The notes under the pieces: generated by a model
Seen by the model: the letters and a program-made list of their open reading frames with translations, nothing else
Told to the model about the DNA's origin: nothing
The model's database searches: none
Source: Rhodanobacteraceae bacterium
GTDB lineage: Bacteria > Pseudomonadota > Gammaproteobacteria > Xanthomonadales > SZUA-5
Reading direction: 5' to 3'
DNA: 64,000 nucleotides
NCBI GenBank assembly: GCA_031425695.1
Contig: JANPJV010000301.1
Location: 5,862 to 69,861 of the forward strand
Program-made: the position numbers and the translations under genes
In this document: piece after piece, positions 1-56,734 of the stretch
How positions within the stretch are numbered: the stretch's first letter is position 1
How the letters are laid out: each line of letters begins with the position of its first letter

Positions 1-964
1 GCTCAGCAAGGTGCTGGCCAATGTCGAGATCGCGATCTTTGCGCTCGACGACCAGCGCCGGCTGATTCTGATCAACGCGGCCGGTGAACGCCTGCTCGCC
101 CGGCGCGCCAGCGCTGCACTTGGACGCAGCGCCCACGAGCTCGGGCTCGATGCGTGCTGCGACACGGAAACGCCGGCGACGCTGAAGACCGCGTTCCCGG
201 GCGGCGCCGGCAGCTTCGACTTGCGCCGTGCAATCTTTCGCCAGGGCGGTCGCCCACACGAGCTGATCGCAGTCACCGATCTCTCGCGCGCGCTGCGCGA
301 GGAGGAGCGGCAAGCCTGGCAGCGGCTGATCCGGGTGCTCGGCCATGAGCTCAACAATTCACTGGCACCGATTCGTTCGATGGCGGCCACCATCTCGACC
401 ATGATCGCGCGCCAGCCACCGCCGGAAGACTGGCGCGAGGACGTGCTCGGCGGGCTCGCGGTGATTGGCGACCGGGCCGAATCATTGACCCGTTTCATGT
501 CCGCCTACACCCGCTTGGCGCGGCTTCCCGCACCGAACAAGCGCGCCGTCTCGCTGGCGGCGGTGGTGCGCCGCGCTGCGCGCCTGGAGCAGCGGCGCCA
601 GGTCGAGATTGGCGAGCTGCCGCCGGTCCAGATCCAGGCCGACGCCGACCAGATCGAGCAGGCACTGATCAACCTGATCAAGAACGCTGCCGAGGCCTCG
701 ATCGAAACCGGCGGTCGGCAGGTCAGCGTCGAGATGCGCGTCGGCGACGAGGACGTCGTGATCGAGATCAAGGACGACGGCCCGGGCCTGTCCAAGACCG
801 AAAACCTGTTCGTTCCCTTCTTCACCACCAAGCCCGGCGGCAGCGGTGTCGGCCTGGTGCTGGCGCGCCAGATCGTCGAGAACCATGGCGGGCAACTGAC
901 CCTGCTCGACCGCGTCGACGCGAGTGGCTGCGTCGTCAGCCTGGTGCTGCCGCTGGCCGCTTGA
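1..964 (+). CDS. Sensor histidine kinase, C-terminal part (5' end outside window)
   Basis: H-box 'GHELNNSLAPI' (HisKA). HATPase_c N/G boxes 'LINLIKNAAEA', 'DDGPGL', 'GGSGVGL'. The frame is open to the window edge. Confidence 0.85.
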   Translation, partial: LSKVLANVEIAIFALDDQRRLILINAAGERLLARRASAALGRSAHELGLDACCDTETPATLKTAFPGGAGSFDLRRAIFRQGGRPHELIAVTDLSRALREEERQAWQRLIRVLGHELNNSLAPIRSMAATISTMIARQPPPEDWREDVLGGLAVIGDRAESLTRFMSAYTRLARLPAPNKRAVSLAAVVRRAARLEQRRQVEIGELPPVQIQADADQIEQALINLIKNAAEASIETGGRQVSVEMRVGDEDVVIEIKDDGPGLSKTENLFVPFFTTKPGGSGVGLVLARQIVENHGGQLTLLDRVDASGCVVSLVLPLAA

Positions 965-1007
965 GCGCGGTGCATACTCCGCTTTCCTTTTGCGAGAGGC
1001 TCGTCCA

Positions 1008-1601
1008 ATGCATAGCGCAATCAAATCGAGCGTGCTGCTCGGTGCCGCCCTGTTGCTGGCCGCGTGCGGATCCACCTCCAAGCTGGTTGCTACCGATACC
1101 GAATCGCAGAGCCTGGACCTGCGCGCGTACGAGCGCGTCGCCGTGCTCGATTTCACCAACGCAACCTCGCGCGAAATCAAGGACGAGGAAAAGCGAGCCG
1201 AGTACGCGGCACGGGTCACCGAGGCCGGCGTCAAGTTTGCTGATCTCATCGCCGGCGAAATGCGCGATCACAAGGCCGCGCCGGAGGTCCTTCGCGAGCA
1301 GCCTGAAGGCAAGGCACTCATCGTAAAGGGCGAAATCACCGAATACGTCCCCACCAATTTCGTGATTCGCTGGTTGCTGCCGATCGTCGGCGAGACGAAG
1401 TTCGACGCGGTCGTCCACTTCATCGATGCCGAAAGCGGGACGGAGCTCGGCACCATCCTGGTCGACAAGAATTCCTGGCCCCTCGGCGGCTGGGGCGCCA
1501 TCACGCAGACCGTCGATAGCCTCATGGGCCCCCCGGCCCAGAAGGTCGCCGAAGAGCTGGCCATCGCGCGCGGGGTGATGCAGCGGCCGGCGAAGAAGTA
1601 G
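1008..1601 (+). CDS. Lipoprotein of unknown function
   Basis: An internal ATG at 1008 gives 'MHSAIKSSVLLGAALLLAAC' (signal peptide plus lipobox LAAC). The upstream part of ORF 924 overlaps the kinase 3' end. Confidence 0.7.
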   Translation: MHSAIKSSVLLGAALLLAACGSTSKLVATDTESQSLDLRAYERVAVLDFTNATSREIKDEEKRAEYAARVTEAGVKFADLIAGEMRDHKAAPEVLREQPEGKALIVKGEITEYVPTNFVIRWLLPIVGETKFDAVVHFIDAESGTELGTILVDKNSWPLGGWGAITQTVDSLMGPPAQKVAEELAIARGVMQRPAKK

Positions 1602-1603
1602 CG

Positions 1604-1679
1604 GGTTTCGGTGTCGGTTCTCGGTGTCGGAAGGGCGTGAGCCCTGCATTTTCCGAAACCGAAACCGACAACCGAAACC
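1604..1679. terminator. Long imperfect inverted repeat between convergent genes (putative bidirectional terminator)
   Basis: Arms of about 27 nt built from GGTTTCGG-type units (1604-1630 versus 1653-1679). An inner AGGGC-GTGA-GCCCT hairpin sits between the lipoprotein stop (1601) and the gmk stop (1685). Confidence 0.5.
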
Positions 1680-1684
1680 ACGCT

Positions 1685-2344
1685 TCAGGCCAGCAGCTGC
1701 GCCAGCAACGCCGCCTGGCGCGGGCCCTGGTTGCGGATCGACAGGCGCACGCCGCGGACGATGCAGGCCAGGTCCTGATGGGCGTCGTCGAAACGGTCGT
1801 TGACCACCAGGTAATCGAACTCGTGCGCATGCGCCATCTCGCCGCGCGCGTTGGCGATTCGCCGCGCGATGACTTCCGGTGAATCCTGGCCGCGTGCCTT
1901 GAGGCGCTCGAGCAGGGCCTCGCGCGAAGGTGGCAGGATGAAGATCAGCAAGCAGGCCGGGAAGCGCTCCCGAATCTGCCGCGCGCCCTGCCAGTCGATT
2001 TCGAGGATCACATCCCGGCCGGCCGCGAACGCCGCGTCGACCTGATCCCGGCAAGTGCCGTAGAAATTGCCGTGGACTTCGGCGTGCTCGAGCAGGCGAT
2101 TGCCCGCGATCAACGCGCGAAAACTGTCGACGGTCGTGAAGTGGTAATGCTCGCCATCGACCTCGCCGGGGCGTGGCTGACGCGTGGTATGGGAAACCGA
2201 AACCATGAGCCGCGAGTCAGAGGCGACCAACGCCCGCACCAGGCTGGTCTTGCCCGCGCCTGAGGGCGCCGCGATCACGAACAGATTGCCAGCAGCGTGA
2301 TTCGGCACGCCGTGATCGACGGCGAGGTTGGTCGCGCCGGTCAT
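1685..2344 (-). CDS. gmk: Guanylate kinase
   Basis: P-loop 'APSGAGKTSL' and 'SHTTRQPRPGEVDGEHYHF', typical of Gmk. Start chosen at the internal ATG (2344) that gives a normal length of about 219 aa. Confidence 0.9.
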   Translation of the reverse strand: MTGATNLAVDHGVPNHAAGNLFVIAAPSGAGKTSLVRALVASDSRLMVSVSHTTRQPRPGEVDGEHYHFTTVDSFRALIAGNRLLEHAEVHGNFYGTCRDQVDAAFAAGRDVILEIDWQGARQIRERFPACLLIFILPPSREALLERLKARGQDSPEVIARRIANARGEMAHAHEFDYLVVNDRFDDAHQDLACIVRGVRLSIRNQGPRQAALLAQLLA

Positions 2345-2723
2345 GCGACCGGGATCGCTGCAGATGGCTGGGTGACCGCCATGGGTGATTGTCCAGAAGC
2401 CAGCAAGGCGCGGACGGCTGAGTCTAGCGGGTTCGGCCCGAGCACGCTGCCGAAGTGCGACTGCCAACCGAATCCTGAACTACGCAGCGCATCCAGGGCG
2501 GAGTCACGAGACTGCCCCCGGGTGCGCCTCCGGCGTACCGGGCGACAGAGAGTGACAAGCCGCCCGTTCCAATTGATTTGCCGGCGCAGACCTTTTGCTT
2601 GAGCGTAATCGATATTGTCGAGCTCGCCGGACGATGACCACCAACCCATCTATTCACACCTGCGGCATCGTTCGACGGCCTGCCTGAGAAACCACCGCGC
2701 AAATCCGAAAAGGGTGCACGTCC

Positions 2724-5700
2724 ATGATCCGATCCACGCTCCGGCTACTTCGCAGCGGCTTGATCTCCTTGTCGCTGTTTTCGGTTTGCGGCAGCGCAGT
2801 CGCGCAGGTGACCATCCTCAATCCGGGTTTCGAGGCACCAGCCTTTGGGCCTGGAGGCTGGAGCTACAATCCCGGCGGGTCCAGCTGGACGCACGGATCA
2901 AGCACCGGAATCGCCAGCAACGGCTCACCCTGGTACGTCAACCCGGCGCCACAGGGCACGCAGGCTGCTTTCTTGCAGGTCGCTCATGTGACCAACTCGG
3001 TCATGTCCCAGGTCATCAACCTGCCGAGCGCTGGCAACTACGAGATCCGGTTTTTCCTGGTGCGACGAGCTGCGGCCTATCCGGCCAACGACGTTGCCGT
3101 GCGCATGAACGGGGTCACGCTTACCACGATCATGAATACGGCGCAGCCGGATGATACCTGGCGCGAGTTCGTGGTCCCTTATACGGCGGCAGCGGCGGGC
3201 AACCATACGCTGGCATTTGCCGGAACGCGCTGCTGCGCAGATTTCGACTCGGCGCTGGACAACGTCCGCATCAATGCATTGACCCAGGCGTCCACCACCA
3301 GCATCACCGCCGCTACGCCGGACCCGTCGGTAATCGGCCAGGCGGTCACCATCAATGTTCAGGTAGACGGTGCCACGTCGGCGCCTGCCGATGGCCAGGT
3401 AGCCGTGAGCGCCAGCACCGGTGAGAGCTGCACCGACCTGACCGCTACCGCCGGTCCCGGAACTGCTTCTTTTTTCAGCTGCTCCATCACTTTCGCCAGC
3501 GCTGGCCCACGCAACCTGACGGCGAACTTTTCGGCGTCCGCAACCCACAGCGCGAGCGCATCGGCTATCGAGCCGCATTCGGTGTCGGCGACGCCGATCG
3601 TGACCAGCACCACCATCTCCTTCATTACGCCCGCAGGCAGCCAGACCATCGGCATCCCCTACGCGGTCTCAGTCGCAGTGAACGGTGCCGCGCCGACCGG
3701 CACCGTCGCGGTGAATGATGGCGACGGCAACAGCTGCACCATTGCCTTACCGGGCAGCAACTGCTCGTTGACCAGCACGTCGGTCGGGCCGAAGACGATC
3801 TCCGCGAGCTACGGTGGCGATGCGTTCAATACTGCGTCCGCAGATAACGAGCCGTACGCGATCACGTCGAACGCGAACCAGTCGGGTGGCCTCCAAGTGG
3901 GCACGATCACGCTGCCCGCCACCGCCGCGGCGCCGGCTGTCAATCCGCTGACGACGGTAGCCTTCGCTCAGCCCTTCAACTCGATTCCGGTGGTGGTGGT
4001 CCAGACCTCCGACGAGGATTCGGCCAACCCGAAGGCCCTGCGCATCCGCAACGTCACGACGACCGGGTTCCAGGTGCTGCAAGTGCAGGCGCCGTGTCCG
4101 GGCTGCACGGGCGCGGGCAGTTCGATGACGGTGCATTGGCTGGCGGCGATGCCGGGCACTTATCGACTGGAGCAGGACACTGCGGTGTCGGCGTGGGCGC
4201 CACTGGCGCCGCGCGGCTCCGGCCCGGGAGCGTTACTCAAGGTCGGTGCGGTCACCACGACGGCGACCCAGCGCAGTACTGTTCCGGGCGGGTTCGGCGG
4301 GTGGCCGGCGCGTAGCTGGGACAGCGTCATCTGGCCGGTGCTGGGCGGCGGACTGGATTTTGCTGCGTCGCCAGTGGTGCTGACGACGATCCAGAGCTGG
4401 AACAACGAAGGCACCAACCTGACGGCGGGCGGTTTGACCGGCCCGTCGCAACCTTGGGCGACCAGCGTAACCAATGCGGCTACGGCGACCGGGTTCCAGT
4501 TTGCGATCGAGGCTTCCGAGGTGACTGACGACGACCTGGCTCCGCCAGGCTTCGCATCCGGCGAGAGTATCGGCTACGTCGCAATGGAGCCGGGTGCGTC
4601 GCAGCTGCTGGTGCCGCTCGGTGGCCCGCCGAACGTCGGCATGATCACCGCCCTGGCGACGGCCGCGCGCGGATCCTGCACGTCGAACATGAACAACTTT
4701 CCGGCGGCAACGTCGATCAATCCGCCGGACTTCCTCGGATTTGTCAGCAAGCAGTCGCGGGCGATCGAAGATGGTGGCTGGTTGCGCCGCTGCGCCCTGT
4801 CGAGCGGTGGTGGCACGGCGGTCATCGTCGGCGCGCGGGTCGAGGATGACAATGCCTTCGACCCGATTGCGCCGCCAGCCAATGCCAAGGGGGGTGGTGG
4901 CGGACCGCCTGATACCAGCGGCATCGTCGCCTTCAGCGGCGGCTTCACCACCACGCCGGTGACGCTGGCGAAGCTGTCGGTGAGCCGCATCGGCAGTGCG
5001 CTCGATGTGCAGTTTTCCACTGCCACCGAAAGCGCCCAGCTCGGCTTCCGGGTCTGGGGCCGCAGCGCTCCGAATGGTGACTGGGCCTTGCTGAGCCCGG
5101 ACCTGATCGGCAGCAGCGCTGAAGGCCATGAGCTGAAGCGCTATGCGCGCCGCATCGAAGCCGCGGGCGGCATCACCGAGGTTCGCCTCGAGGACATCGA
5201 TGTGCTCGGCGCCAGCCGCTTCCACCTGCCGGTGGCGGTCGGCAGCACGCGCGGCGAGGATCCAATCGCGGCGCCGATCAACTGGGCCGCCATCCAGGCG
5301 GACAATGCCGCCAACCCGGCGCGTGCAGCACGTATTTCCGAGAACGCCAGCGCACTTGCGCAGGTCAAGCAGAGTGGCGTGCAACGCGTCGATGTGGCAG
5401 CACTGATCTCGACCGACGCCCGTTTTGCTGGCATCAGTGCCGACCAACTCGCGGTTCGCGATGGCAGCACGCCGATCGCTCGCCATGTCTCCTGTGCCAA
5501 CCTCCAGGCGGGTTGTTTCGTCGAGTTCCTGGGTACTGCGCGCACGTCGCTGTATGGCGCCGAGAACGCCTACACGCTGACTTTGGCAGCAGCCGATGCG
5601 CGCATCGTGGGCAGTGGCCACGCGCTCGTCGGCAGCGGCACGCCGCGCAACTTCACCGACACCTTCGTCCACGCGCCGAACCTGCTCTACAGCGCCAGTT

Positions 5701-20810: not shown

Positions 20811-20958
20811 GTGGGTCCGGACCTTGTCCGGACGCTGTTGCTTAGCTGTACGTGGGTCCGGACCTTGTCCGGACGCTGTTGCTTAGCTGTACGTGGGTCC
20901 GGACCTTGTCCGGACGCTGGTGCTTAGCTGTACGTGGGTCCGGACCTTGTCCGGACGC
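20811..20958 (+). repeat. REP array, family 1 (41-bp period, 3 full units plus 1 truncated)
   Basis: Unit 'GTGGGTCCGGACCTTGTCCGGACGCTGTTGCTTAGCTGTAC' starts at 20811, 20852, 20893 and 20934. Confidence 0.9.
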
Positions 20959-21043
20959 TTTTCATACAAATCCAGAAACTTCCTACAGGAAAACCCGGTG
21001 GCGACCCGATGCACTCAAGCTGGCCCGCTCGGCATTGTTACTC

Positions 21044-21517
21044 ATGCCCTACGACAGCCTCCTGCGTCATCGTGAACAAGCGCTCGGCAATGGCTTCACT
21101 GTCACATTCTGCGCACTTGACCGCCGGCCTGTTTTTGCGTCGGACGCAGCGGCGGCGATCTTGGCCAGAGCGATTTGGCGAAGCGATGAGCTGAAACTAT
21201 CCAGCACCCACGCCTGGGTGATCATGCCGGACCACGTCCACTGGCTGGTTTCCGTAGAAGCCGGTGTTTCCGTCAGCAGGGCGGTAGCGAGCGTCAAGGC
21301 CAACACCAGTCGCCAGCTTGCACAGCTGGGACTGACCGGCCTCTGGCAGCCCGGCTTCTATGAACATCGCGTGCGCAACCAGGAAGACCTCGCCTCTCAA
21401 GCTCGCTATCTGATCGCGAATCCACTGCGAGCCGGGCTGGTCGCGAAGCTCTCGGATTACCGGTGGTGGTACACCTCATTTGCATGTTCGGCTGACGGTG
21501 AAGATGTGTTCTGGTAG
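21044..21517 (+). CDS. REP-associated tyrosine transposase (RAYT, IS200/IS605-like Y1 HUH enzyme)
   Basis: HUH motif 'MPDHVHWLV'. C-terminal Tyr helix 'ASQARYLIANPLRAGL'. About 157 aa from the internal ATG 21044; the upstream ORF portion is only translated REPs. Confidence 0.85.
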   Translation: MPYDSLLRHREQALGNGFTVTFCALDRRPVFASDAAAAILARAIWRSDELKLSSTHAWVIMPDHVHWLVSVEAGVSVSRAVASVKANTSRQLAQLGLTGLWQPGFYEHRVRNQEDLASQARYLIANPLRAGLVAKLSDYRWWYTSFACSADGEDVFW

Positions 21518-21523
21518 TGATCA

Positions 21524-21917
21524 ACAGCGTCCGGACAAGGTCCGGACCCACGTACGGCTAAGCAACAGCGTCCGGACAAAGTCCGGACCCACGTACAGCT
21601 AAGCAACAGCGTCCGGACAAGGTCCGGACCCACGTGCAGCAAAGCAACAGCGTCCGGACGAGGTCCGGACCCACGTGCAGCAAAGCAAGAGCGTCCGGAC
21701 GAGGTCCGGACCCACGTACGGCTAAGCAAGAGCGTCCGGACAAGGTCCGGACCACGTCCGGCTAAGCAAGAGCGTCCGGACGAGGTCCGGACCCACGTGC
21801 AGCAAAGCAACAGCGTCCGGACAAGGTCCGGACCCACCTGCAGCAAAGCAACAGCGTCCGGACGAGGTCCGGACCCACGTGGAGCCAAAGGCAACAGCGT
21901 CGGACGGGTCCGGAGTC
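21524..21917 (-). repeat. REP array, family 1, inverse orientation (9 units plus 1 degenerate)
   Basis: Unit 'CAGCGTCCGGACAAGGTCCGGACCCACGTACGGCTAAGCAA' repeats about every 41 bp from 21524. One unit carries a 1-bp deletion and the last unit is degenerate. Confidence 0.9.
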
Positions 21918-28644: not shown

Positions 28645-29601
28645 TCAGGATGCGCCCCGGCGCAACCACGTGGACAGCAGTTGCGGAGCCAGCAACTGCA
28701 TTGACTTGCGGACCGCCAGATCGGCACCGGCGGTGGTCGCCAGTGCCGTGGCAATCCCGAGTAGCGAGCCGCCCGGGCGCGGGTCCGCATCGCGGGCACA
28801 CACGAGTGGCACGGCATGCAGCAGCCGGCACCACGCCGGGAACGCGTGTATCGGCATGGCCGGCTCGGCGTCGCAAAATTCATCCCAATGCGCGGCCAGG
28901 CTTGGCGACGCGCAGATTGCGATTTCGGCGCTCTCCGGAAACGCGAAACAGAGCTCGGCAATATCAGCGAACTCCGCCTTATGATCACTGCCCGCGCGGG
29001 CGAGCTCGGCGTGCCAGCACAGCGCAGCTTCGTTGGAGCGCCAGGCGGAATCCCGTTCCACCGCGGCCATGGCTTGCTCGTACTCGCCCAGCAGGTGGTA
29101 CAAATAGCTGTGATGCGTATGCGCCGTCGCGGCCTGATAGGGCCTGTCGTCCGCCTGAGCGAGCAGGCTCCTCAAAGCCAAGTGCACCACCCGATCGGGG
29201 TGATCAGCAAGCGCGCGCGCGGCCGCCGGGCGCAGCGCGGACTCGATCCAATCCAGCGCCGCGCCCGTGTCTTGCCAGCGCGGATGACCGCGTTCAATCG
29301 CCTCGATGCAGCATTCCATATCACACGCAAACCCCTCCAGATCCGGGCACTGAGCTCGAATGAAGGCCAGCTCGGTCCGCACCGAAGCGATCGATGTCTG
29401 CTGCAGTGCACGCCGTGCCCGTGCCGCCGCTTGCTCGATGGCACTGTCCCGGAACAGATCCAGCTGATCGACCCGCGTTGCCGTCGACGCGCCGCAGCGA
29501 CCGGCTTGGTTTGTTGGCGACTCCACCCGCGCCGATTCCGGCGCGAAGAGGTCGAGATTCACGCACTGTGTCATGGAACGACGCGCAGTTTCAAAGGCCA
29601 C
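28645..29601 (-). CDS. Hypothetical helical protein (318 aa)
   Basis: Long GC3-rich ORF with no recognised family. Two N-terminal xLDLF pentapeptides. The start could be 29574. Confidence 0.6.
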   Translation of the reverse strand: MAFETARRSMTQCVNLDLFAPESARVESPTNQAGRCGASTATRVDQLDLFRDSAIEQAAARARRALQQTSIASVRTELAFIRAQCPDLEGFACDMECCIEAIERGHPRWQDTGAALDWIESALRPAAARALADHPDRVVHLALRSLLAQADDRPYQAATAHTHHSYLYHLLGEYEQAMAAVERDSAWRSNEAALCWHAELARAGSDHKAEFADIAELCFAFPESAEIAICASPSLAAHWDEFCDAEPAMPIHAFPAWCRLLHAVPLVCARDADPRPGGSLLGIATALATTAGADLAVRKSMQLLAPQLLSTWLRRGAS

Positions 29602-29971: not shown

Positions 29972-30002
29972 TTGACACCGTACTGCGGTACGGGACTACG
30001 GT
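29972..30002 (+). promoter_or_regulatory. MerR-type promoter/operator: TTGACA-N19-TACGGT with dyad CCGTAC-N4-GTACGG
   Basis: 'TTGACACCGTACTGCGGTACGGGACTACGGT' lies 45 bp upstream of the ATG at 30047. The 19-bp spacer and dyad closely mirror the Tn501/Tn21 mer operator as I recall it. Confidence 0.65.
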
Positions 30003-30046
30003 CACTGAACTCGGGGCGCGGTGTCCCGAATTTGGAGCAGGCCGAT

Positions 30047-31042
30047 ATGAAAATTCCAGCGCCACCACGAGCAACGCTGTTTACGCTAGCGCTTTTTGCC
30101 GCGACGTTCGCGCTGGCAGCGCCGGCGCCTGCGGTGCACGAACACTCGGCGTCGGAGGCGGCGCAGTCGTCCGATGTGGCAGAGCGCCCCATTGAAGCCG
30201 GCGCCATCCGTTTGAACGACGCGAAGAGCTCCAGTGACGACCTGGCCGGATCGGTGTGGAGCAAGTCCGGTTCGATGTCGTTCCAGAGCATCAGCACCAC
30301 CCACGGAAAGTCGACGGTTCGCGGCGCCAAGCCTGACCTGGTCGAGGCGACGCTCGTGGTCAATGGCATGCAGATCAAGCATGTTTTCGACTCCCTGCAA
30401 AACAATGTCACGATCAGCACGACCGAGTCGGTAAAGCTCGAAAAGGCCGACGTCGAGGTTCTGCGGACTTTCCAGCAAGAGTTTGGCAAGGCTGTGCTGT
30501 CGGCGGACACCTTCATGAGCATGCCGCGCGCGACTGAAGTCATATACCGGCTCAGTGAAATGTACTCGGAAGCCCCGTACGGAATTGACCTGCCAAAGAT
30601 GCGAGTGATCGATTTCAACATCGACCCTGAGCAGAATGCCGATATCGACCCTGGGCAGAATGCCGTTGCCGGTGGGCTGGTGTTCGGAAGCACGGAAAAA
30701 GCCTGTGGCCAGGCAGGCGGGGGTTTCATCGACCTGCACGATACGGCCAATGTGTGTGATAGAGGCGCCTTCTATCGCAATGCACATCATGACTTTTGCC
30801 CGAATCACGATTACATATCGAACAATCAAAAATACGGCTGCGGTAGTTCCGATTGTTACGGCCGCTGCGGCGGTGGTTGCGGCGCACTCAACGGACAGGG
30901 CGCCTGGCAGAAGGACTGCCTTGACCATGACGTCTGCAATCGCAGTCACAACTCGCAGTTTGGGGGTTGCGGTGACGAATGGAACGAAGCGGCTGACGAC
31001 TACCTCAACGGCGCCATCCACTGCATTTTCGACCATTGCTGA
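30047..31042 (+). CDS. Secreted Cys-rich protein with a C-terminal sPLA2-like motif set
   Basis: GGAG 9 nt upstream. Signal peptide 'MKIPAPPRATLFTLALFAATFALAAPAPA'. C-terminus 'CYGRCGGGCG...KDCLDHDVC...GGCGDEWNEAAD'. Confidence 0.75.
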   Translation: MKIPAPPRATLFTLALFAATFALAAPAPAVHEHSASEAAQSSDVAERPIEAGAIRLNDAKSSSDDLAGSVWSKSGSMSFQSISTTHGKSTVRGAKPDLVEATLVVNGMQIKHVFDSLQNNVTISTTESVKLEKADVEVLRTFQQEFGKAVLSADTFMSMPRATEVIYRLSEMYSEAPYGIDLPKMRVIDFNIDPEQNADIDPGQNAVAGGLVFGSTEKACGQAGGGFIDLHDTANVCDRGAFYRNAHHDFCPNHDYISNNQKYGCGSSDCYGRCGGGCGALNGQGAWQKDCLDHDVCNRSHNSQFGGCGDEWNEAADDYLNGAIHCIFDHC

Positions 31043-31050
31043 GCTGCCGA

Positions 31051-31081
31051 AGGGAGGCAGGTGCTGCGCGCCTGTCTCCCT
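31051..31081 (+). terminator. Hairpin after the secreted-protein gene
   Basis: AGGGAGGCAGG-N9-CCTGTCTCCCT (11-bp stem with one G-T pair) 9 nt after the stop. No clear U-tract. Confidence 0.4.
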
Positions 31082-31183: not shown

Positions 31184-31672
31184 GTGACATTGCGCATCGG
31201 GGAGCTTGCCAGGCTAGCGGATGTCGGCGTTGAGACTGTCCGCTTCTACCAGCGGAGTGCGATCCTGCCTCTGCCCCCGAAGCCCCCAGGCGGCATACGT
31301 TGCTATTCCGAGGAGCATCTGAAGCTCTTGCAGCGGATTCGCGTGGCCCGCGAGGTGGGCTTTTCCTTGGCGGAGATTCAAAGCGCCTTCTCGCGATTCA
31401 ATCAGCCCTGCGCGGTCACCCACGGGTACGCCATGCACAAGCTGCTCCGGGTCACCGAGCAGATCAATCGCTTTACGCGGATGTCGATCTGCCTGGAGGC
31501 CTGGATCCGCTTCTGCGAGGAAGATTCCGCACGCTCCGTTCGCGATGCGATTGAAACGACAGTGGGTCCCTTGAGTGCTCAAACGATGGGCGAACTCAAG
31601 GACAAACGCACGAAGCCCAATAGATCGCCACGTACACGCGCTAGAAAGCGCCTCTCGCGGACTGATCCATAG
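31184..31672 (+). CDS. MerR-family regulator, closest by eye to mercury-type MerR
   Basis: 'IGELARLADVGVETVRFYQRSAILPLPPKPPGGIRCY...GFSLAEI' parallels Tn501 MerR '[37 protein letters not shown]...GFSLDEI'. Start uncertain (GTG 31184, TTG 31190 or ATG 31106). Confidence 0.75.
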   Translation: MTLRIGELARLADVGVETVRFYQRSAILPLPPKPPGGIRCYSEEHLKLLQRIRVAREVGFSLAEIQSAFSRFNQPCAVTHGYAMHKLLRVTEQINRFTRMSICLEAWIRFCEEDSARSVRDAIETTVGPLSAQTMGELKDKRTKPNRSPRTRARKRLSRTDP

Positions 31673-34005: not shown

Positions 34006-34073
34006 GCTTCCACATCGAGTGACCTCAAGTGCCGCCTGCGGGCGGTTCTCCCGTCTTCGTGGTGGAGGTTGTC

Positions 34074-35354
34074 GTGAATTTTCCTGTTCCTCATTGCGCG
34101 CGCCCGGGCCTGGCGCTGTCCCTGGTGCTCGGTCTCTCGCTGCTGAGCCCGGCGCTCAAGGCCGAGCCGCCTCCATTGTCGCTGTTCGATGCTGTGCAAC
34201 TGGCCGAACGCCAAGCGCCGCAGATCCGCGCGCGCGACGCCGCCATCGCTGCGGCCGAGGCCGCCATCGGCCCGGCCGGTGAGTTGCCGGATCCGGAGCT
34301 CATCCTCGGTATCGAGAATCTGCCCATCGATGGCGACGAGCGCTTGAGCCTCACCGATGACTTCATGACCATGCGCAAGCTCGGCTTCATGCAGTCCTTT
34401 CCGCGCCGCGAGAAGCGCCTGCTGCGGGCCGAACGCGCCACGAGCGAGGCCGCGCGCGAGCGTTCGCTGCTGATCAGTGAGCGCTTGGGCGTTCACGAAG
34501 CGGTTGCGCGCGCCTGGATTGCGGTGGCGATCGCCGAGCAGCGCGCGCGGCTCTTGCAGGAGCTTGCAGCGACTGCTGATGCGCAACTGGCCGCCGCAAC
34601 CGCCGCGCTGACGGCCGGGCGCGGCTCCGCAGCGGACGGAATCAACGCGCGCAGCGCGGTGGTCGCGCTGCGGGATCGAATCCTGGCAGCGCAGGCGCAG
34701 GTCGATACGGCGCGTTCCGACCTCAAGCGTTGGCTGCCTGGGTTCGCAGACGCGAAGCTGGCGCCGGCACCCGACTGGTTCGATCTCGGTGTGGAGGCCG
34801 ACGCGCTTGCCGGCAAGATTGCCCATCACCGCGAACTTCTGGCGTTCGCCGCAGCCGAGCATGCGGCGGCGACTGAGGTGGCGCTCGCGCGCGCCGAGAA
34901 GCGTCCGGATTGGTCGCTCGAAATGGCCTACGCGCAGCGGGGGCCGCAGTACTCGAACATGCTGTCGGTGCAGGTGCGGGTCGGCTTGCCAATCTTTGCG
35001 GGCTCGCGCCAGGAGCCGACCATCGCCGCCAAACAGGCCCTGCTCACCGGCATCGAAGCCGAGCGCGAGGCGGCGCTACGCATGCACGGTGCCGAGCTCG
35101 AGCGGACGGTCACGGTGTGGCGCAGCAGCGCCGAGCGTCTGCGTCGCTATCAACGTGATCTGCTGCCATTGGCCGAGGAGCGCACGGCGGTGGCGCTTGC
35201 TGCCTACCGCGGCGGCAGCGGCGATCTGCAGGCCGTGCTGGTCACCCTCGAAGCGGCCATTGAACAGCGCCTGGCCTATGTCGATTTGACCGATACCTTG
35301 GCGCAGGCCTGGGCCACGCTGCACTTCGCCTTTCCGCAGGAGGGCGCGCGATGA
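34074..35354 (+). CDS. cusC: TolC-family outer-membrane efflux protein (CusC/CzcC type)
   Basis: GTG start after GGAGG. Signal peptide. Two TolC-type repeats. 4-nt overlap with cusB. Confidence 0.8.
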   Translation: MNFPVPHCARPGLALSLVLGLSLLSPALKAEPPPLSLFDAVQLAERQAPQIRARDAAIAAAEAAIGPAGELPDPELILGIENLPIDGDERLSLTDDFMTMRKLGFMQSFPRREKRLLRAERATSEAARERSLLISERLGVHEAVARAWIAVAIAEQRARLLQELAATADAQLAAATAALTAGRGSAADGINARSAVVALRDRILAAQAQVDTARSDLKRWLPGFADAKLAPAPDWFDLGVEADALAGKIAHHRELLAFAAAEHAAATEVALARAEKRPDWSLEMAYAQRGPQYSNMLSVQVRVGLPIFAGSRQEPTIAAKQALLTGIEAEREAALRMHGAELERTVTVWRSSAERLRRYQRDLLPLAEERTAVALAAYRGGSGDLQAVLVTLEAAIEQRLAYVDLTDTLAQAWATLHFAFPQEGAR

Positions 35355-36844
35355 GCCGCCTGCGCTTGCTACTGGTCCTGCTGCTTGGCGTGGTCGTCGG
35401 CAGCGCCGCGACGTGGTGGTTCACGAAAGCTCCGCAAGAAGCGCGTTCAGACGAGCCCAGGCCAACGGCTGAACAGACCGTGCTCTATTGGTACGACCCG
35501 ATGGTCCCGAATCAGCATTTCGACCAGCCGGGCAAATCGCCGTTCATGGACATGCAGCTGGTCCCGAAGTACGCCGGAGCGGCCGAAGATGCGGCGGGGA
35601 CGGTCAGCATCGATCCGCGGCTGGTGCAGAACCTCGGCGTACGCACCGCAACTGCGCAACGCGGCCGGCTTGGCGTCAGTGTTCGCGCCACCGGATCGGT
35701 GGCCTTCGACGAGGGTGCGATCACCTGGGTGCAGGCACGCGTCGCCGGCATCGTCGAACGTCTGCATGTACGAACCACGCTGATGCGGGTCGACCAGGGC
35801 CAGCCGCTGCTGACCCTGATCGCACCCGAATGGACGGCCGCACAGGCCGAGTATCTGGCGTTGCGCCAGACGCGCAGCGCGGGGCTCGATGGCTTGCGCG
35901 CGGCAGCGCGCCAACGGCTGGTGCTGCTCGGCATGAGCGAAGGCCAGATACGCGCGGTGGAACGTAGCGGCCGCGCGCAGGATCGCATCACCGTTAGCGC
36001 CGCGCACGCTGGGGTCATCGGCGAACTGAGTGTGCGCGAGGGCGCCAGCGTCATGGCCGGCACGCCATTGATGCGCATCAACGGCCTCGACTCGGTGTGG
36101 ATCAATGCGGCGATTCCCGAAACGCAGATCGGACGCGTGCCGGCCGGCGCCACGGTGACCGTGGAATTGGCGGCCTATCCCGGGATGAGCTTCGCGGGCG
36201 TGATCGACGCCCTGCTGCCGGATCTGGATGCGGCCACGCGCACGCAGGTTGCCCGCATCCGCGTGCCGAATGCGGACGGACGATTGCTGCCGGGGATGTT
36301 CGCGCAGATCAAGATCGAGGCCGCTGAGAACGCGGCTCATCTGGTCCTGGTGCCCACCGAGGCGGTGATCGCGACCGGCACGCGCGATGTGGTCATCGTC
36401 GATGCCGGCGATGGCCGCTTCCGCGCGCAGGAGGTGCGCATAGGCGACGAGGCGAACGGCCAGACGGCCGTGCTGGAAGGCTTGTCTGACGGCGATCGGG
36501 TGGTCCTGTCCGGTCAGTTCCTGGTCGACTCGGAAGCCAGTCTGATCGGGACGCTGGCAAGGCTGGAGACCAGCCCAGCGGATGACGCTGGCAGTGCGGC
36601 GGCCGAACGCCACTCGGCCCAGGGCGTGATCGAAGACACCAACGGCCACACCTGGACCATCGCCACCGACGCCATCCCGTCCTTGCAGATGGGCGCGATG
36701 TCGATGCGCTTCTATCACCCGGAGCATCTGCCGGAAGACCAGTTCAAGGCTGGCGCGCGGGTCAGCTTGTCCTTCTTCCGAAACGCCGATGGCGAATTCG
36801 AAATCGCCGAAGTCGCGGTCGTCGCGCAGGCGCCCACGCCATGA
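35351..36844 (+). CDS. cusB: RND periplasmic adaptor (CusB type) with a fused C-terminal CusF-like domain
   Basis: '[27 protein letters not shown]' is a CusB N-terminal signature. The barrel-sandwich/beta-barrel core follows. The C-terminal 77 aa are CusF-like ('[10 protein letters not shown]'). Confidence 0.85.
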
Positions 36845-39800
36845 TCGCGCGGGTGATCTACGGCGCCATCGCGAACCGTTTCCTGGTCTTGCTTGCGGCG
36901 CTGTTCCTGACCGCCTGGGGCCTGTACGCGGTCAGTCGCACGCCGGTCGATGCATTGCCCGATCTGTCGGATGTGCAGGTGATCATCCGCACGACCTGGC
37001 CCGGGCAATCACCGCAGCTGGTCGAGAACCAAGTCACCTATCCACTGACCACGACCATGCTCTCGGTGCCGGGCGCCAAGGCTGTGCGCGGGTTTTCATT
37101 CTTCGCCGACTCCTACGTCTACGTGTTGTTCGAAGACGGCACAGATCTCTACTGGGCACGCTCGCGCGTCCTCGAGTACTTGAACCAGGTGCAATCGCGG
37201 CTGCCGCGCGGCGTGACCACCGCGCTCGGGCCAGACGCGACCGGGGTCGGCTGGATCTACCAGTACGCACTGGTCGACCGTGGCGGCCAGAACGACCTGT
37301 CCGAGCTGCGCGCGCTGCAGGACTGGTTCTTGCGCTTCGAGCTCAAGACCGTGCCGGGCGTCGCCGAAGTCGCCAGCATCGGCGGCATGGTGCGCCAGTA
37401 CCAGGTCGTACTTGATCCTGAGCGCCTGCGCGCTTATGGCGTCAGCCAGGCCCAGGTGATCGACGCCGTGCAGCGTGCCAACGGCGAGGCTGGCGGTTCA
37501 GTACTGGAGCTGGCTGAAGCCGAATACATGGTGCGGGCGAGCGGCTATCTGAAAAGCCTCGAGGATTTCCGCGCGATACCCCTGAGCAGCAATGCGACGG
37601 GCACGCCGGTACTGCTCGGCGATGTCGCCCGCGTCCAGCTCGGCCCCGAAATGCGCCGGGGCATTGCCGAGCTCAATGGCGAAGGCGAAGTCGTCGGCGG
37701 CGTGATCATCATGCGCTCCGGCAAGAATCCGCAGGCGACGATCAGCGCGGTGAAGGCCAAGCTCCAAACCCTGCGCGCGAGCTTGCCGGCCGGCGTCGAG
37801 GTGGTCGAGACCTACGATCGCTCGCAACTGATCGGCCGCGCAATCGACAACCTGACCGCGAAGCTGCTCGAAGAATTCCTGGTGGTGGCGCTCGTCTGCG
37901 CGGTGTTCCTGTTCCACCTGCGCTCGGCACTGGTGGCGATCGTGGCGCTGCCACTCGGCGTGCTGATGGCCTTCATCGTCATGCAATGGCAGGGCCTCAA
38001 CGCCAACATCCTGTCGCTCGGCGGCATCGCGATCGCGATCGGCGCCATGGTCGATGCGGCGATCGTCATGATCGAAAATGCTCACAAGCATCTCGAGGCC
38101 TGGCAGCACGCGCATCCCGGTGAAAGCTTGGAAGGCGAGGCGCGCTGGCGTTTGATCGGAGACGCTGCGGCAGAAGTCGGGCCGGCGCTGTTCTTCAGCC
38201 TGCTCATCATCACCCTGTCCTTTGTTCCGGTGTTTACCCTGGAGGCGCAGGAAGGCCGCTTGTTCGCGCCGCTCGCGTACACCAAGACCTATGCGATGGC
38301 GGCGGCGGCGGGGCTGTCCATCACCTTGATTCCGGTGTTGATGGGCTACTGGATTCGCGGCCGCATACCGGACGAAAACGCCAACCCGCTGTCGCGTGTG
38401 CTGATCAGCAGCTACCGGCCGCTGCTCGATGCGGTGTTGCGCTTTCCCAAATCCACGCTGGTGTTGGCGTTGGCCTTGTTGCTGGCGACCGCGTGGCCCA
38501 TCACCCAGATCGGTGGCGAGTTCCTGCCGCCGCTGGACGAAGGCGATGTCCTGTACATGCCGACCGCGCTGCCGGGACTTTCCACGGGCAAGGCCGCGCA
38601 GATCCTGCAACAGACCGACAAGATGATCCGTTCAGTGCCGGAGGTCGCAAGTGTTTTCGGGAAGATCGGACGGGCCGAAACGGCGACCGATCCGGCGCCG
38701 ATGGAAATGGTCGAAACCACCGTGCGCTTCAAGCCGCGCGCCGAGTGGCGTGCCGGCATGACCCCGGAAAAGTTGATCGAGGAACTCGACGCGGCGGTGC
38801 GTCTGCCGGGACTCACCAACCTGTGGGTGCCACCGATCCGCAATCGACTGGATATGCTGGCCACCGGCATCAAGTCGCCGATCGGGATCAAGGTCAACGG
38901 CAACGATCTTGCGGTCATCGACCAAGTCGCGGCAAGCATCGAGAAGGCGATCAAGGATGTCCCTGGCGTGAGCTCGGCGCTGGCCGAGCGACTCACTGGC
39001 GGCCGCTACATCGACATCGCGATCGACCGCGCGGCGGCGGCGCGCTACGGCCTCAATATCGCCGATGTGCAGAGCATCATCACCGCCGCGATCGGCGGGG
39101 AAAACATCGGCGAAGTGGTCGACGGTCGGCGCCGCTTCCCGATCAGCGTGCGCTATCCGCGCGAACTGCGCGACAGCGTGCAGAAGTTGCGCGAGCTGCC
39201 GATGCTGACGGCTGCGGGCGCCCAGATTGTGCTCGGCAGCGTCGCCCAGATCAGCATCAGTGCCGGACCGCCGATGATCCGCAGCGAAAATGCACGGCTC
39301 TCGGGCTGGATCTACGTCGACGTCCGCGACCGCGACCTCGCGTCGGTCGTGGGCGATCTCAAGCAACGCGTCGCCCGCGATATCCAGCTGCCGGCGGGTT
39401 ACTCAATCACCTGGTCCGGCCAGTTCGAGTACTTCGAGCATGCGATGGCCAAGCTGAAGGTGGTGATTCCGGCGACGCTGGTGATCATCTTCGTGCTGCT
39501 CTATCTGACCTTCGGACGCGCCGACGAAGCGGCGCTGATCCTCGGCAGTATTCCCTTCGCACTGATCGGCGGTTTCTGGCTGATGTACCTGCTCGGCCAC
39601 GCCTTGTCGGTCGCCACGGCGGTGGGTTTCATCGCGCTCGCAGGCGTCTCCGCCGAGTTCGGCGTGATCATGCTGCTGTACCTGAAGCACGCTTGGGAGC
39701 GCCGTCTTGCAGCCGGCGAACCGGCATCGCCAGAAACCCTGCTCGCCGCCATCCGCGAAGGCGCTGTCCAGCGCGTGCGCCCCAAGGCGATGACCGTTGC

Positions 39801-39996
39801 CGTCATCCTTGCCGGCCTGTTGCCGATCATGATCGGCAGCGGCACCGGCTCGGAAATCATGCAGCGCATCGCTGCCCCCATGGTCGGCGGGATGATCTCG
39901 GCGCCACTGCTGTCGATGCTGGTGATTCCAGTGGTGTACCGGCTGCTGCGCGAGCGCTCGGATGTGGTGCGCGCAGCGGAGGCTCCGCTCGCGTAG
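36841..39996 (+). CDS. cusA: CusA/CzcA-family heavy-metal RND efflux pump
   Basis: 1051 aa with 12-TM RND architecture. '[13 protein letters not shown]', '[20 protein letters not shown]'. Confidence 0.9.
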
Positions 39997-56342: not shown

Positions 56343-56734
56343 GTCCCGATCTCCCGGGTCAACGCATTGAGGATTGGACACGCGTCCGCTCGGCCGTGAC
56401 CCGGGCAGGCTTTGATCAGCGTGCTCAGGCCGCGGCGGATGGACTCGAGCTCTGCAATCCGGCGGTCGACATCGGCAAGCCGCACCTCCGCGGCCTGCTT
56501 GACGCGGGCGATGTCCTGCTCGTCGCTGAGGGTCAGCAGTCCCCGGATTTCCTCGAGCGTAAATCCGAGGAGCTTTGCGCGCCGGATGAACTGGAGTCGC
56601 TTGAGCTGGATCTCGCCGTATTGCCGATAGCCGGAGCTTTGACGTCCGGCCGGTTCCAGCAGCCCATCCCGTTCGTAGTAGCGCACCGTGTCGACGGCTA
56701 CATTTCCACGCTTCGCCAGTTCACCGATTTTCAT
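56339..56734 (-). CDS. cueR: Cu(I)-responsive MerR-family regulator
   Basis: '[26 protein letters not shown]' and C-terminal '[12 protein letters not shown]' (the CueR Cys pair). Confidence 0.85.

What the first reader, a model, noticed from the sequence alone, without database searches (positions are those of the whole stretch)
29972..30002. Near-canonical mer-type operator/promoter in front of a non-mer gene
Seen: 'TTGACA CCGTACTGCGGTACGGGAC TACGGT' is a -35/-10 pair separated by exactly 19 nt. The spacer carries the perfect dyad CCGTAC-N4-GTACGG, 45 bp upstream of the ATG at 30047. Established (from memory): the Tn501/Tn21 mer operator-promoter is TTGACT-CCGTACATGAGTACGGAAG-TAAGGT, and the 19-bp spacer is the hallmark of MerR-family activation by DNA distortion. 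The match covers the -35, both half-sites, the spacing and 5 of 6 positions of the -10. There is no merT/P/C/A/B anywhere in the window. The controlled gene is instead a Cys-rich secreted protein, and the MerR-like gene lies downstream in the same orientation rather than divergent. Inference: a mer-type sensor/operator pair has been rewired to a different output.
Basis: partly seen in the sequence, partly recalled or inferred. Interest (0 to 1): 0.72.

Follow-up and report, generated by a model that had tools for sequence, protein, structure and literature searches.

The report
Mercury-type switch before a non-mercury gene
A promoter and operator of the mercury-resistance (mer) type sits in front of a secreted, cysteine-rich protein of unknown function, next to a divergent MerR-like regulator that lacks one of the three mercury-binding cysteines; this looks like a repurposed metal switch, but it is a single case and only a modest variation on a well-known theme.

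Summary
The window holds TTGACA (29972-77), a 19-nt spacer containing the perfect dyad CCGTAC-N4-GTACGG, and TACGGT (29997-30002), 44 nt upstream of the ATG at 30047. It matches the Tn21 mer operator-promoter (checked in plasmid R100) at 23 of 31 positions in the same register. The chance expectation is about 4e-8.

The same operator variant precedes merT-merP-merA in metagenomic contigs, so it is a genuine mer-type operator. The window has no merT, merP, merC or merA.

The downstream gene (30047-31042) encodes a secreted two-domain protein of the DUF8213 family. The family has invariant His-Asp and Cys residues, no match to any solved fold, and no metal link in 29 other loci.

The next gene (31190-31672) is an orphan MerR-family regulator. 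Its DNA-recognition helix is the mer type and its nearest relatives (at most 41% identity) use the same operator. It keeps the equivalents of Cys82 and Cys117, has Arg at the Cys126 position, and its metal loop is four residues shorter, so it fails the test for true MerR.

Having the regulator on the same strand as the operator is common among its relatives. Mer-type operators before non-classical genes also exist elsewhere (Gemmobacter, a glutaredoxin-MauE fusion).

Verdict: a plausible rewired MerR-type switch with an unknown signal, seen once, and of moderate interest.

The parts
29972..29977 (+). -35 hexamer TTGACA
   Evidence: Read directly. It is a perfect sigma-70 consensus; Tn21 has TTGACT.
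29978..29996 (+). 19-nt spacer CCGTACTGCGGTACGGGAC, carrying the operator dyad CCGTAC (29978-83) - TGCG - GTACGG (29988-93)
   Evidence: The same spacer variant, ACCGTAC-N4-GTACGGGAC, precedes merT-merP-merA in L044, L045 and L047. It also lies next to a MerR-family gene in Gemmobacter p1.
29997..30002 (+). -10 hexamer TACGGT (TAnnnT); it is also a third copy of the half-site, being the reverse complement of ACCGTA at 29977-82
   Evidence: Tn21 has TAAGGT.
30034..30037 (+). Shine-Dalgarno GGAG, 9 nt before the ATG
   Evidence: Read directly.
30047..31042 (+). Gene for a 331-aa secreted, Cys-rich two-domain protein of the DUF8213 family, the presumed regulated output
   Evidence: 28 close homologs carry PF26641/DUF8213. 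The N-terminus aligns with theirs. The wider family has 445 representatives. C274, C291, H294 and D295 are invariant across 132 sequences. The AF2 model has pLDDT 84.4, and no PDB fold matches at E below 0.3.
31051..31081 (+). 14-bp GC-rich hairpin just after the stop codon, with no U-tract; it could be a partial terminator or an mRNA-stabilising element
   Evidence: The 161-nt intergenic stretch folds with a z-score of -4.5.
31190..31672 (+). Gene for a 160-aa orphan MerR-family regulator (TTG start, GGGAG 5 nt upstream), the presumed ligand of the operator
   Evidence: Pfam MerR_1 and MerR-DNA-bind. The best NCBIfam match is MerR, at 84 bits against a cut-off of 150.85. The best PDB match is 5crl, MerR. 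The alignment shows C74 matching C82, C109 matching C117, and R115 in the C126 column. The best homolog is 41% identical.

Best explanation
This is a MerR-type 'activation by DNA distortion' promoter that controls a gene unrelated to mercury resistance. The product of 31190-31672 is proposed to bind as a homodimer to the dyad CCGTAC-N4-GTACGG, which sits in the over-long 19-bp spacer between a perfect -35 and a TAnnnT -10. Without its signal it would hold the promoter off or poised. With its signal it would under-twist and kink the spacer so that RNA polymerase can engage both hexamers. That would switch on the DUF8213 gene (30047-31042) and possibly, by read-through past the hairpin at 31051-81, its own gene.

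The signal is probably not sensed as in canonical MerR. The protein keeps the equivalents of Cys82' and Cys117 at the MerR spacing of 35 residues, but it lacks Cys126 and has a shorter loop. This suggests either a two-thiolate site for a soft metal ion or a thiol-reactive or oxidative signal acting across the dimer interface.

The likely origin is a 'promoter, then regulator first' unit of the kind seen in the closest relatives, into which (or in front of whose regulator) the DUF8213 gene came to lie. Both genes have lower GC than their surroundings.

Shown: the sequence anatomy, the family relationships, and the pairing of recognition helix with operator type across loci. Inferred: binding, activation, the identity of the signal, and co-transcription.
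For: The operator-promoter anatomy matches Tn21 in register, and chance is excluded. The same operator variant drives merT-merP-merA in L044, L045 and L047. The adjacent regulator has best NCBIfam and PDB matches to MerR. Its closest homologs sit next to the same operator type: L007 is divergent from merT-merP, L004 lies upstream of merR with a thioredoxin-like gene and merF, and L005 lies upstream of merR with a P-type ATPase. All seven regulators with the helix V[GN]VET[IV]RFY[QE]R pair with CCGTAC-type half-sites. The window's second MerR-family protein ([11 protein letters not shown]) has its own TTGACT-19-nt promoter with CTGGAC-N4-GTCCAG. The C74-C109 spacing of 35 residues equals that of C82-C117 in MerR, so the dimerisation helix is intact. 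No other mer-type dyad exists in the 64 kb. The leader length (44 nt, with an SD) is like that of real mer operons. The mechanism and the Hg ligands Cys82', Cys117 and Cys126 are as reviewed in PMC9909328. The 19-bp spacer as the MerR-family hallmark is also described in PMC7911910.
Against: There is no experimental evidence and no comparative support, because the regulator is an orphan and the pairing with DUF8213 is unique. The regulator is very divergent: R100 MerR matches the window's CueR-like gene better (E 7e-23) than this one (E 8e-11). It also has a 38-residue basic tail without homologs, so it could be decaying. A strong hairpin separates the two genes. The -10 hexamer is also a third half-site copy, so its role as a -10 is not certain. 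The rest of the genome is unseen and may encode a canonical MerR.
Confidence: 0.55

Rival explanations
1. It is the relic of a decayed mer unit. The operator-promoter and a degenerating merR-like gene are leftovers of a former mercury or soft-metal operon whose structural genes were lost or replaced. The DUF8213 gene merely landed behind the promoter, and the regulator no longer senses anything; at most it represses constitutively.
For: The third Hg-ligand Cys is lost, the loop has a 4-residue deletion, and there is an unusual basic C-terminal tail. The regulator is highly divergent, has no orthologs and scores far below the MerR cut-off. DUF8213 genes elsewhere are stand-alone, have no metal context and no such promoter. 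GC and GC3 are lower for both genes, which suggests foreign or drifting DNA.
Against: The regulator ORF is intact and has a good SD. The recognition helix, the Arg-x-Tyr motif, the helix length between the two Cys residues and the two Cys residues themselves are all conserved. The dyad is perfect and the -35 is consensus, which is unexpected for unselected DNA in a 65% GC genome. No frameshifted MerR-like C-terminus was seen in the other frames.
Confidence: 0.2
2. The site is served in trans by a canonical MerR encoded elsewhere in the genome, for example on a mer transposon. The DUF8213 gene would then belong to a mercury regulon, and the neighbouring regulator would be irrelevant or would compete for the site.
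For: The operator variant is identical in its core and flanks to that of real merT-merP-merA operons. MerR-clade proteins with the same helix bind this operator type. The window lies in a metal-resistance-rich region with two heavy-metal RND systems, a P-type ATPase, a multicopper oxidase and DUF411.
Against: No mer gene and no canonical MerR is found in the 64 kb. The adjacent regulator carries the matching recognition helix, and adjacency is the rule in this family. This could not be tested beyond the window.
Confidence: 0.15
3. It is a chance resemblance with no regulatory role.
For: GC-rich genomes hold many short palindromes. The generic scan for TTGAC plus a 19-20-nt spacer with a 5-bp or longer inverted repeat finds about 10 sites in shuffled sequence.
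Against: The specific composite is expected 4e-8 times. It is intergenic, correctly oriented and spaced before a gene with an SD. A regulator of the matching clade lies 1.2 kb away.
Confidence: 0.02

Closest known systems
Tn21/Tn501 merR-merOP-merTPCAD (plasmid R100, NC_002134.1, positions 92-3821)
   Same: Both have a -35 hexamer, a 19-bp spacer and a -10 hexamer, with the dyad CCGTAC-N4-GTACGG starting right after the -35. The match is 23 of 31 positions. The regulator has a MerR-type recognition helix and the equivalents of Cys82 and Cys117.
   Different: There are no mer structural genes. The regulator is not divergent and lies 1.2 kb downstream. It lacks Cys126 and has a shorter loop. The dyad is 6 bp rather than 7 bp. 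The -10 is TACGGT rather than TAAGGT.
'Regulator-first' mer-type units in metagenomic contigs: L004 (merR, thioredoxin-like gene, merF), L005 (merR, two unknown genes, P-type ATPase) and L043. Gram-positive mer operons have the same layout, but that point is from my own knowledge.
   Same: They use the same operator type, on the same strand as the regulator gene. Their regulators are the closest relatives, at 37-41% identity.
   Different: In those units the operator lies directly before the regulator gene, all three Cys are present, and the cargo is metal-handling. Here a DUF8213 gene lies between the operator and the regulator.
Gemmobacter fulvus plasmid p1 (NZ_CP076362.1, 339255-340514): a MerR-family gene divergent from a glutaredoxin-MauE fusion
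   Same: The spacer is nearly identical (TTGATA CCGTACTATGGTACGGGAC TTATAT). The sensor is a reduced two-Cys MerR-like protein, and the output is not a classical mer gene.
   Different: The layout is divergent. The Cys that is missing is the Cys82 equivalent, not Cys126. The output is a membrane thiol-redox protein plausibly linked to metals, not a secreted protein.
The CueR-like regulator and copper P-type ATPase unit in the same window (56798-53997, minus strand)
   Same: It has a MerR-family promoter with TTGACT, a 19-nt spacer and a 6-bp dyad with a 4-nt loop abutting the -35. The regulator is on the same strand as its operator.
   Different: The half-site is different (CTGGAC). The regulator comes first and has the CueR-type [10 protein letters not shown] loop. 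The cargo is a classical copper exporter.

Membership tests
mer operator-promoter (Tn21/Tn501 merOP type) | -35 and -10 hexamers separated by 19 bp | tested here: met
   TTGACA, then 19 nt, then TACGGT. This was compared with R100.
mer operator-promoter (Tn21/Tn501 merOP type) | Dyad (T)CCGTAC-N4-GTACGG(A) inside the spacer, starting right after the -35 | tested here: met
   The 6-bp core is perfect and in the same register. The 7th position is not complementary (A and G). The same variant precedes merT-merP-merA in L044, L045 and L047.
mer operator-promoter (Tn21/Tn501 merOP type) | Lies between merR and mer transport or reductase genes | tested here: not met
   The downstream gene is DUF8213. 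tblastn with MerT, MerP, MerC and MerA finds nothing in the window; merB was not tested. The upstream minus-strand ORF (28645-29601) has no family match.
mer operator-promoter (Tn21/Tn501 merOP type) | Bound by MerR and activated by Hg(II) | not testable with these tools
   This needs EMSA or footprinting and reporter assays.
MerR, the Hg(II)-responsive regulator (NCBIfam TIGR02051 equivalog) | Score at or above the curated cut-off | tested here: not met
   The score is 84.1 bits against a cut-off of 150.85. MerR is still the best-scoring model, ahead of ZntR, CueR and CadR.
MerR, the Hg(II)-responsive regulator (NCBIfam TIGR02051 equivalog) | Three Hg ligands: Cys82', Cys117 and Cys126 (PMC9909328) | tested here: not met
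   C74 aligns with C82 and C109 with C117. Arg115 occupies the C126 column, and the loop is 4 residues shorter.
MerR, the Hg(II)-responsive regulator (NCBIfam TIGR02051 equivalog) | N-terminal winged HTH with the mer-type recognition helix, and a 35-residue dimerisation helix between the first two Cys | tested here: met
   Pfam MerR_1, MerR and MerR-DNA-bind match. The helix is VGVETVRFYQR, and the C74-C109 spacing is 35 residues as in MerR.
MerR-family activation by DNA distortion (general mechanism) | An over-long (19-20 bp) spacer, a dyad operator centred in it, and a MerR-family gene nearby | tested here: met
   the mechanism is as described in PMC9909328 and PMC7722741. Activation itself cannot be tested here.
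DUF8213 (PF26641) | Match to the Pfam model, or clear homology to members | tested here: inconclusive
   My Pfam copy gives no hit for the window protein or for P0002, P0016 and P0025. The precomputed hits for the homologs are faint to weak. Homology itself is clear: 66% identity to P0002, E 1e-136.
Secreted phospholipase A2-like domain (considered for the Cys-rich C-terminal domain) | Sequence or fold similarity to sPLA2 beyond the Gly-rich loop and C-x-x-H-D-x-C motif | tested here: not met
   phmmer and hmmsearch against the PDB were negative. Pfam was negative at E up to 10. Foldseek with a confident model (pLDDT 84.4) gave no PLA2 match and nothing below E 0.3.

The most novel reading that the evidence does not exclude
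A MerR-clade sensor has been cut down to a two-cysteine site across the dimer interface (the equivalents of Cys82' and Cys117, with no Cys126). It has acquired a new signal, either a soft metal bound by two thiolates or thiol or oxidative stress. It uses an unchanged mer operator to switch on secretion of a disulfide-rich His-Asp protein with a fold not seen in the PDB. The same module occurs at the C-terminus of an RHS-repeat protein, so it may be a toxin or hydrolase. Metal or redox stress would then be coupled to an extracellular effector rather than to detoxification.
Probability: 0.12. Interest if true: 0.6.

Novelty: new variant of a known kind. Interest (0 to 1): 0.35.

Why it matters
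If the pair is functional, it would be a natural example of a mer operator kept intact while both ends of the circuit changed: a sensor that has lost one Hg ligand, and a secreted protein of unknown fold as the output. That would bear on how MerR-family specificity evolves and on the design of metal biosensors. It would also give the first regulatory handle on the uncharacterised DUF8213 family. Because it is a singleton in an uncultured Xanthomonadales-like genome with no orthologous loci, its general importance is limited until it is tested.

Tried and rejected
(1) PLA2-like identity of the Cys-rich domain. The motif resemblance (YG..CGxGCG, then 17 residues, then DCxDHDxC, then CGDEW..DDY) was seen by eye only. 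Sequence searches against the PDB, Pfam and Foldseek on a confident model were all negative, so this is not claimed.

(2) Comparative support for the pairing. None of the 27 genome loci or the two metagenome loci L001 and L002 with DUF8213 genes shows a MerR-like gene within 3 kb or a mer dyad with one mismatch or fewer. There is no synteny with the window.

(3) Orthologs of the regulator. None exceeds 41% identity, so conservation or selection analysis is not possible.

(4) A merR remnant upstream of the operator, or a frameshifted MerR C-terminus. tblastn finds only 31187-31516 and 56345-56734. The other frames show nothing MerR-like.

(5) A second mer-type site before the regulator or before downstream genes. 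None was found; sites with two or three mismatches are at chance level or lie in repeats.

(6) Insertion scars. The direct repeats around 31040 and 31732 (TGAGCTGCCG) are at chance level for 10-mers.

(7) Rfam: no RNA family in the window.

(8) PADLOC: only a generic HTH hit (mad1) for the regulator.

(9) The first AF2 model, built with 26 sequences, was poor for the C-terminal domain. It was superseded by the 132-sequence model.

(10) The standard sigma-70 scan reports no promoter here. This is by design, because it allows only 16-18-nt spacers.

Full report
**1. The observation**

One search confirms the sequence letter for letter. TTGACA lies at 29972-77, the spacer CCGTACTGCGGTACGGGAC (19 nt) at 29978-96, and TACGGT at 29997-30002. 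A GGAG follows at 30034-37 and the ATG at 30047.

- The dyad CCGTAC-N4-GTACGG is unique in the window. Only 0.06 matches are expected in dinucleotide shuffles even when one mismatch is allowed.
- From base composition, the dyad alone is expected 0.0075 times. The composite TTGACN-dyad-N3-TANNNT is expected 4e-8 times.
- The two one-mismatch hits (21542, 21706) sit in a 41-bp tandem repeat and are irrelevant.

It is exact in 2209 plasmid records. In R100 it lies between merR (minus strand) and merT (plus strand). The window site shares 23 of 31 positions with it and has the same register. Only the 6-bp core of the dyad is complementary here.

**2. Is it a real mer-type operator?**

Yes. I scanned metagenome contigs for the window's own variant, TTGAYACCGTAC-N4-GTACGGGAC, and found five loci.

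- In three of them (L044, L045, L047), merT, merP and merA follow directly.
- In L043 the site lies just upstream of a merR-like gene on the same strand.

A BLAST search of the site against annotated plasmids gave one hit, Gemmobacter fulvus p1. There TTGATA-CCGTACTATGGTACGGGAC-TTATAT lies between a divergent 'MerR family DNA-binding protein' and a 'glutaredoxin family protein', which Pfam resolves as a glutaredoxin + MauE fusion.

**3. No mer genes, but a metal neighbourhood**

tblastn with R100 MerT, MerP, MerC and MerA finds nothing in the window.

MerR finds two genes. One is the gene at 31187-31516 (E 8e-11). The second is CueR-like: it has the loop [10 protein letters not shown] and no Cys at the Cys82 position. 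It precedes a copper-type P-type ATPase. It has its own MerR-type promoter, TTGACT-CTGGACCCGAGTCCAGGGT (19 nt), at 56798-56774.

The window also holds:
- two heavy-metal RND systems;
- a DUF411 protein;
- a multicopper oxidase.

**4. The regulator (31190-31672)**

The family assignment is clear, but membership in true MerR fails.

- It has the Pfam MerR_1, MerR and MerR-DNA-bind domains.
- Its best NCBIfam model is MerR (TIGR02051), but at 84 bits against a cut-off of 150.85. ZntR, CueR and CadR score lower.
- Its best solved relative is MerR, 5crl.
- In the alignment, C74 aligns with MerR C82 and C109 with C117, with the same 35-residue spacing.
- The Cys126 column holds Arg115, the loop is 4 residues shorter, and a 38-residue basic tail follows.

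According to PMC9909328, Hg(II) is bound by Cys117, Cys126 and Cys82'. The residue from the other protomer sets +1/+2 ion selectivity. This protein therefore fails the defining test for MerR, and its effector is unknown.

It is an orphan: the best hit among 5.8 billion proteins is 41% identical. Those best hits are nevertheless mer-type regulators:
- P0031 is divergent from merT-merP (L007);
- P0032 lies with a thioredoxin-like gene and merF (L004);
- P0036 heads an operon ending in an HMA P-type ATPase (L005).

Each of these has TTGAC[AT]-CCG[TG]A[CG]-N4-GTACGG next to it. Across R100, L004, L005, L007, L042, L043 and the window, the helix V[GN]VET[IV]RFY[QE]R goes with CCGTAC-type half-sites. 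The window's CueR-like protein ([11 protein letters not shown]) goes with CTGGAC. This is the main argument that the adjacent regulator is the ligand of the site.

In L004, L005 and L043 the operator and the regulator gene are on the same strand. What is unusual is that another gene lies between them.

**5. The output gene (30047-31042)**

It encodes a 331-aa protein with a signal-peptide-like N-terminus, a short His-rich linker, a beta-rich domain and a Cys-rich C-terminal domain.

- It has 28 close relatives, almost all from Lysobacteraceae or Xanthomonadales MAGs, annotated only as DUF8213.
- A profile search finds 445 representatives.
- Across 132 diverse members only C274, C291, H294 and D295 are invariant.
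- One relative carries the module at the C-terminus of a 1213-aa RHS-repeat protein, and two relatives are fused to dockerin. This points to an extracellular enzyme or toxin-like role.
- With the deep alignment, AlphaFold reaches pLDDT 84.4. Foldseek finds nothing in the PDB below E 0.3.
- A by-eye resemblance to the sPLA2 calcium loop and CCxxHDxC motif found no support.
- In 29 other loci the gene stands alone in varied contexts, with no MerR-like gene, no mer dyad and no metal genes.

**6. Linkage of the two genes**

A 14-bp GC-rich hairpin without a U-tract follows the DUF8213 stop codon (31051-81). A second small hairpin precedes the regulator's SD. The 161-nt intergenic region folds with a z-score of -4.5. 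Co-transcription is therefore open.

Both genes have lower GC (0.58 and 0.61) and lower GC3 (0.70 and 0.73) than their neighbours (GC about 0.65-0.69, GC3 0.74-0.84). DUF8213 genes in other genomes match their flanks. This is compatible with acquisition of the pair, or with drift.

**7. Conclusion**

The most likely reading (about 0.55) is a working MerR-type switch in which a mer operator and a divergent MerR-clade regulator control a non-mer secreted protein. The signal is probably not sensed through canonical three-thiolate Hg(II) binding.

The rivals are:
- a decaying relic (about 0.2);
- control in trans by a true MerR encoded elsewhere (about 0.15, and not mutually exclusive);
- chance (about 0.02).

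MerR-family regulators controlling diverse genes are well known. Mer-type operators with non-classical cargo already exist in public records (Gemmobacter, L005). I therefore rate this as a new variant of a known kind, of moderate interest (0.35), limited by being a single case with no experimental data.

The window comes from an 83-kb NCBI contig, most likely of an uncultured Xanthomonadales-like bacterium.

Noticed in passing
window 20846-20943 and 21522-21914, flanking ORF 20852-21517 (+): A 41-bp tandem array (9.6 copies, 91% match) has the unit CAACAGCGTCCGGACAAGGTCCGGACCCACGTGCAGCAAAG, which contains GTCCGGAC palindromes. It lies just downstream of an IS200-like Y1 transposase ORF (PF01797, E 3e-9). 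Inverted copies of the repeat lie at the other end of the ORF. It looks like a REP-associated tyrosine transposase (RAYT) with its REP arrays.
   Followed up: partly
window 56798-53997 (-): A second MerR-type promoter, TTGACT + CTGGACCCGAGTCCAGGGT (19 nt), has the dyad CTGGAC-N4-GTCCAG but a poor -10 (GCAAGC or CAAGCT). It precedes a CueR-like regulator (56734-56339) and a P-type ATPase with YHS and HMBD domains (56381-53997).
   Followed up: partly
window 30047-31042 and proteins P0076-P0221: The DUF8213 superfamily has 445 representatives. Its predicted fold is confident (pLDDT 84) yet matches nothing in the PDB. Cys, Cys, His and Asp are invariant. The module also occurs at the C-terminus of an RHS-repeat protein (P0133) and fused to dockerin (P0087, P0139). 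It may be an uncharacterised secreted enzyme or toxin domain.
   Followed up: partly
window 30620-30665: There is an in-frame 24-bp tandem duplication inside the DUF8213 gene (IDPEQNAD / IDPGQNAV). It lies in the low-confidence linker between the two domains.
   Followed up: no
window 29977-30005: The -10 hexamer TACGGT is itself a third half-site copy. Read on the minus strand, the palindrome gives a mirrored, weak promoter-like pair: GTGACC, 17 nt, TACGGT. It points towards the unannotated ORF 28645-29601 (-), which occupies the position merR has in Tn21. That ORF has no family match.
   Followed up: no
L042 (Gemmobacter fulvus plasmid p1, NZ_CP076362.1, 339255-340514): A mer-type operator lies between a two-Cys MerR-family gene (it lacks the Cys82 equivalent) and a glutaredoxin-MauE membrane fusion. 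It is another apparently uncharacterised non-classical output of a mer-type switch.
   Followed up: partly
window 35351-36844 (+): The CusB-like membrane-fusion protein carries an N-terminal HMBD and a C-terminal CusF-like domain fused in one polypeptide. It lies within a cusCBA-like operon at 34029-39996.
   Followed up: no
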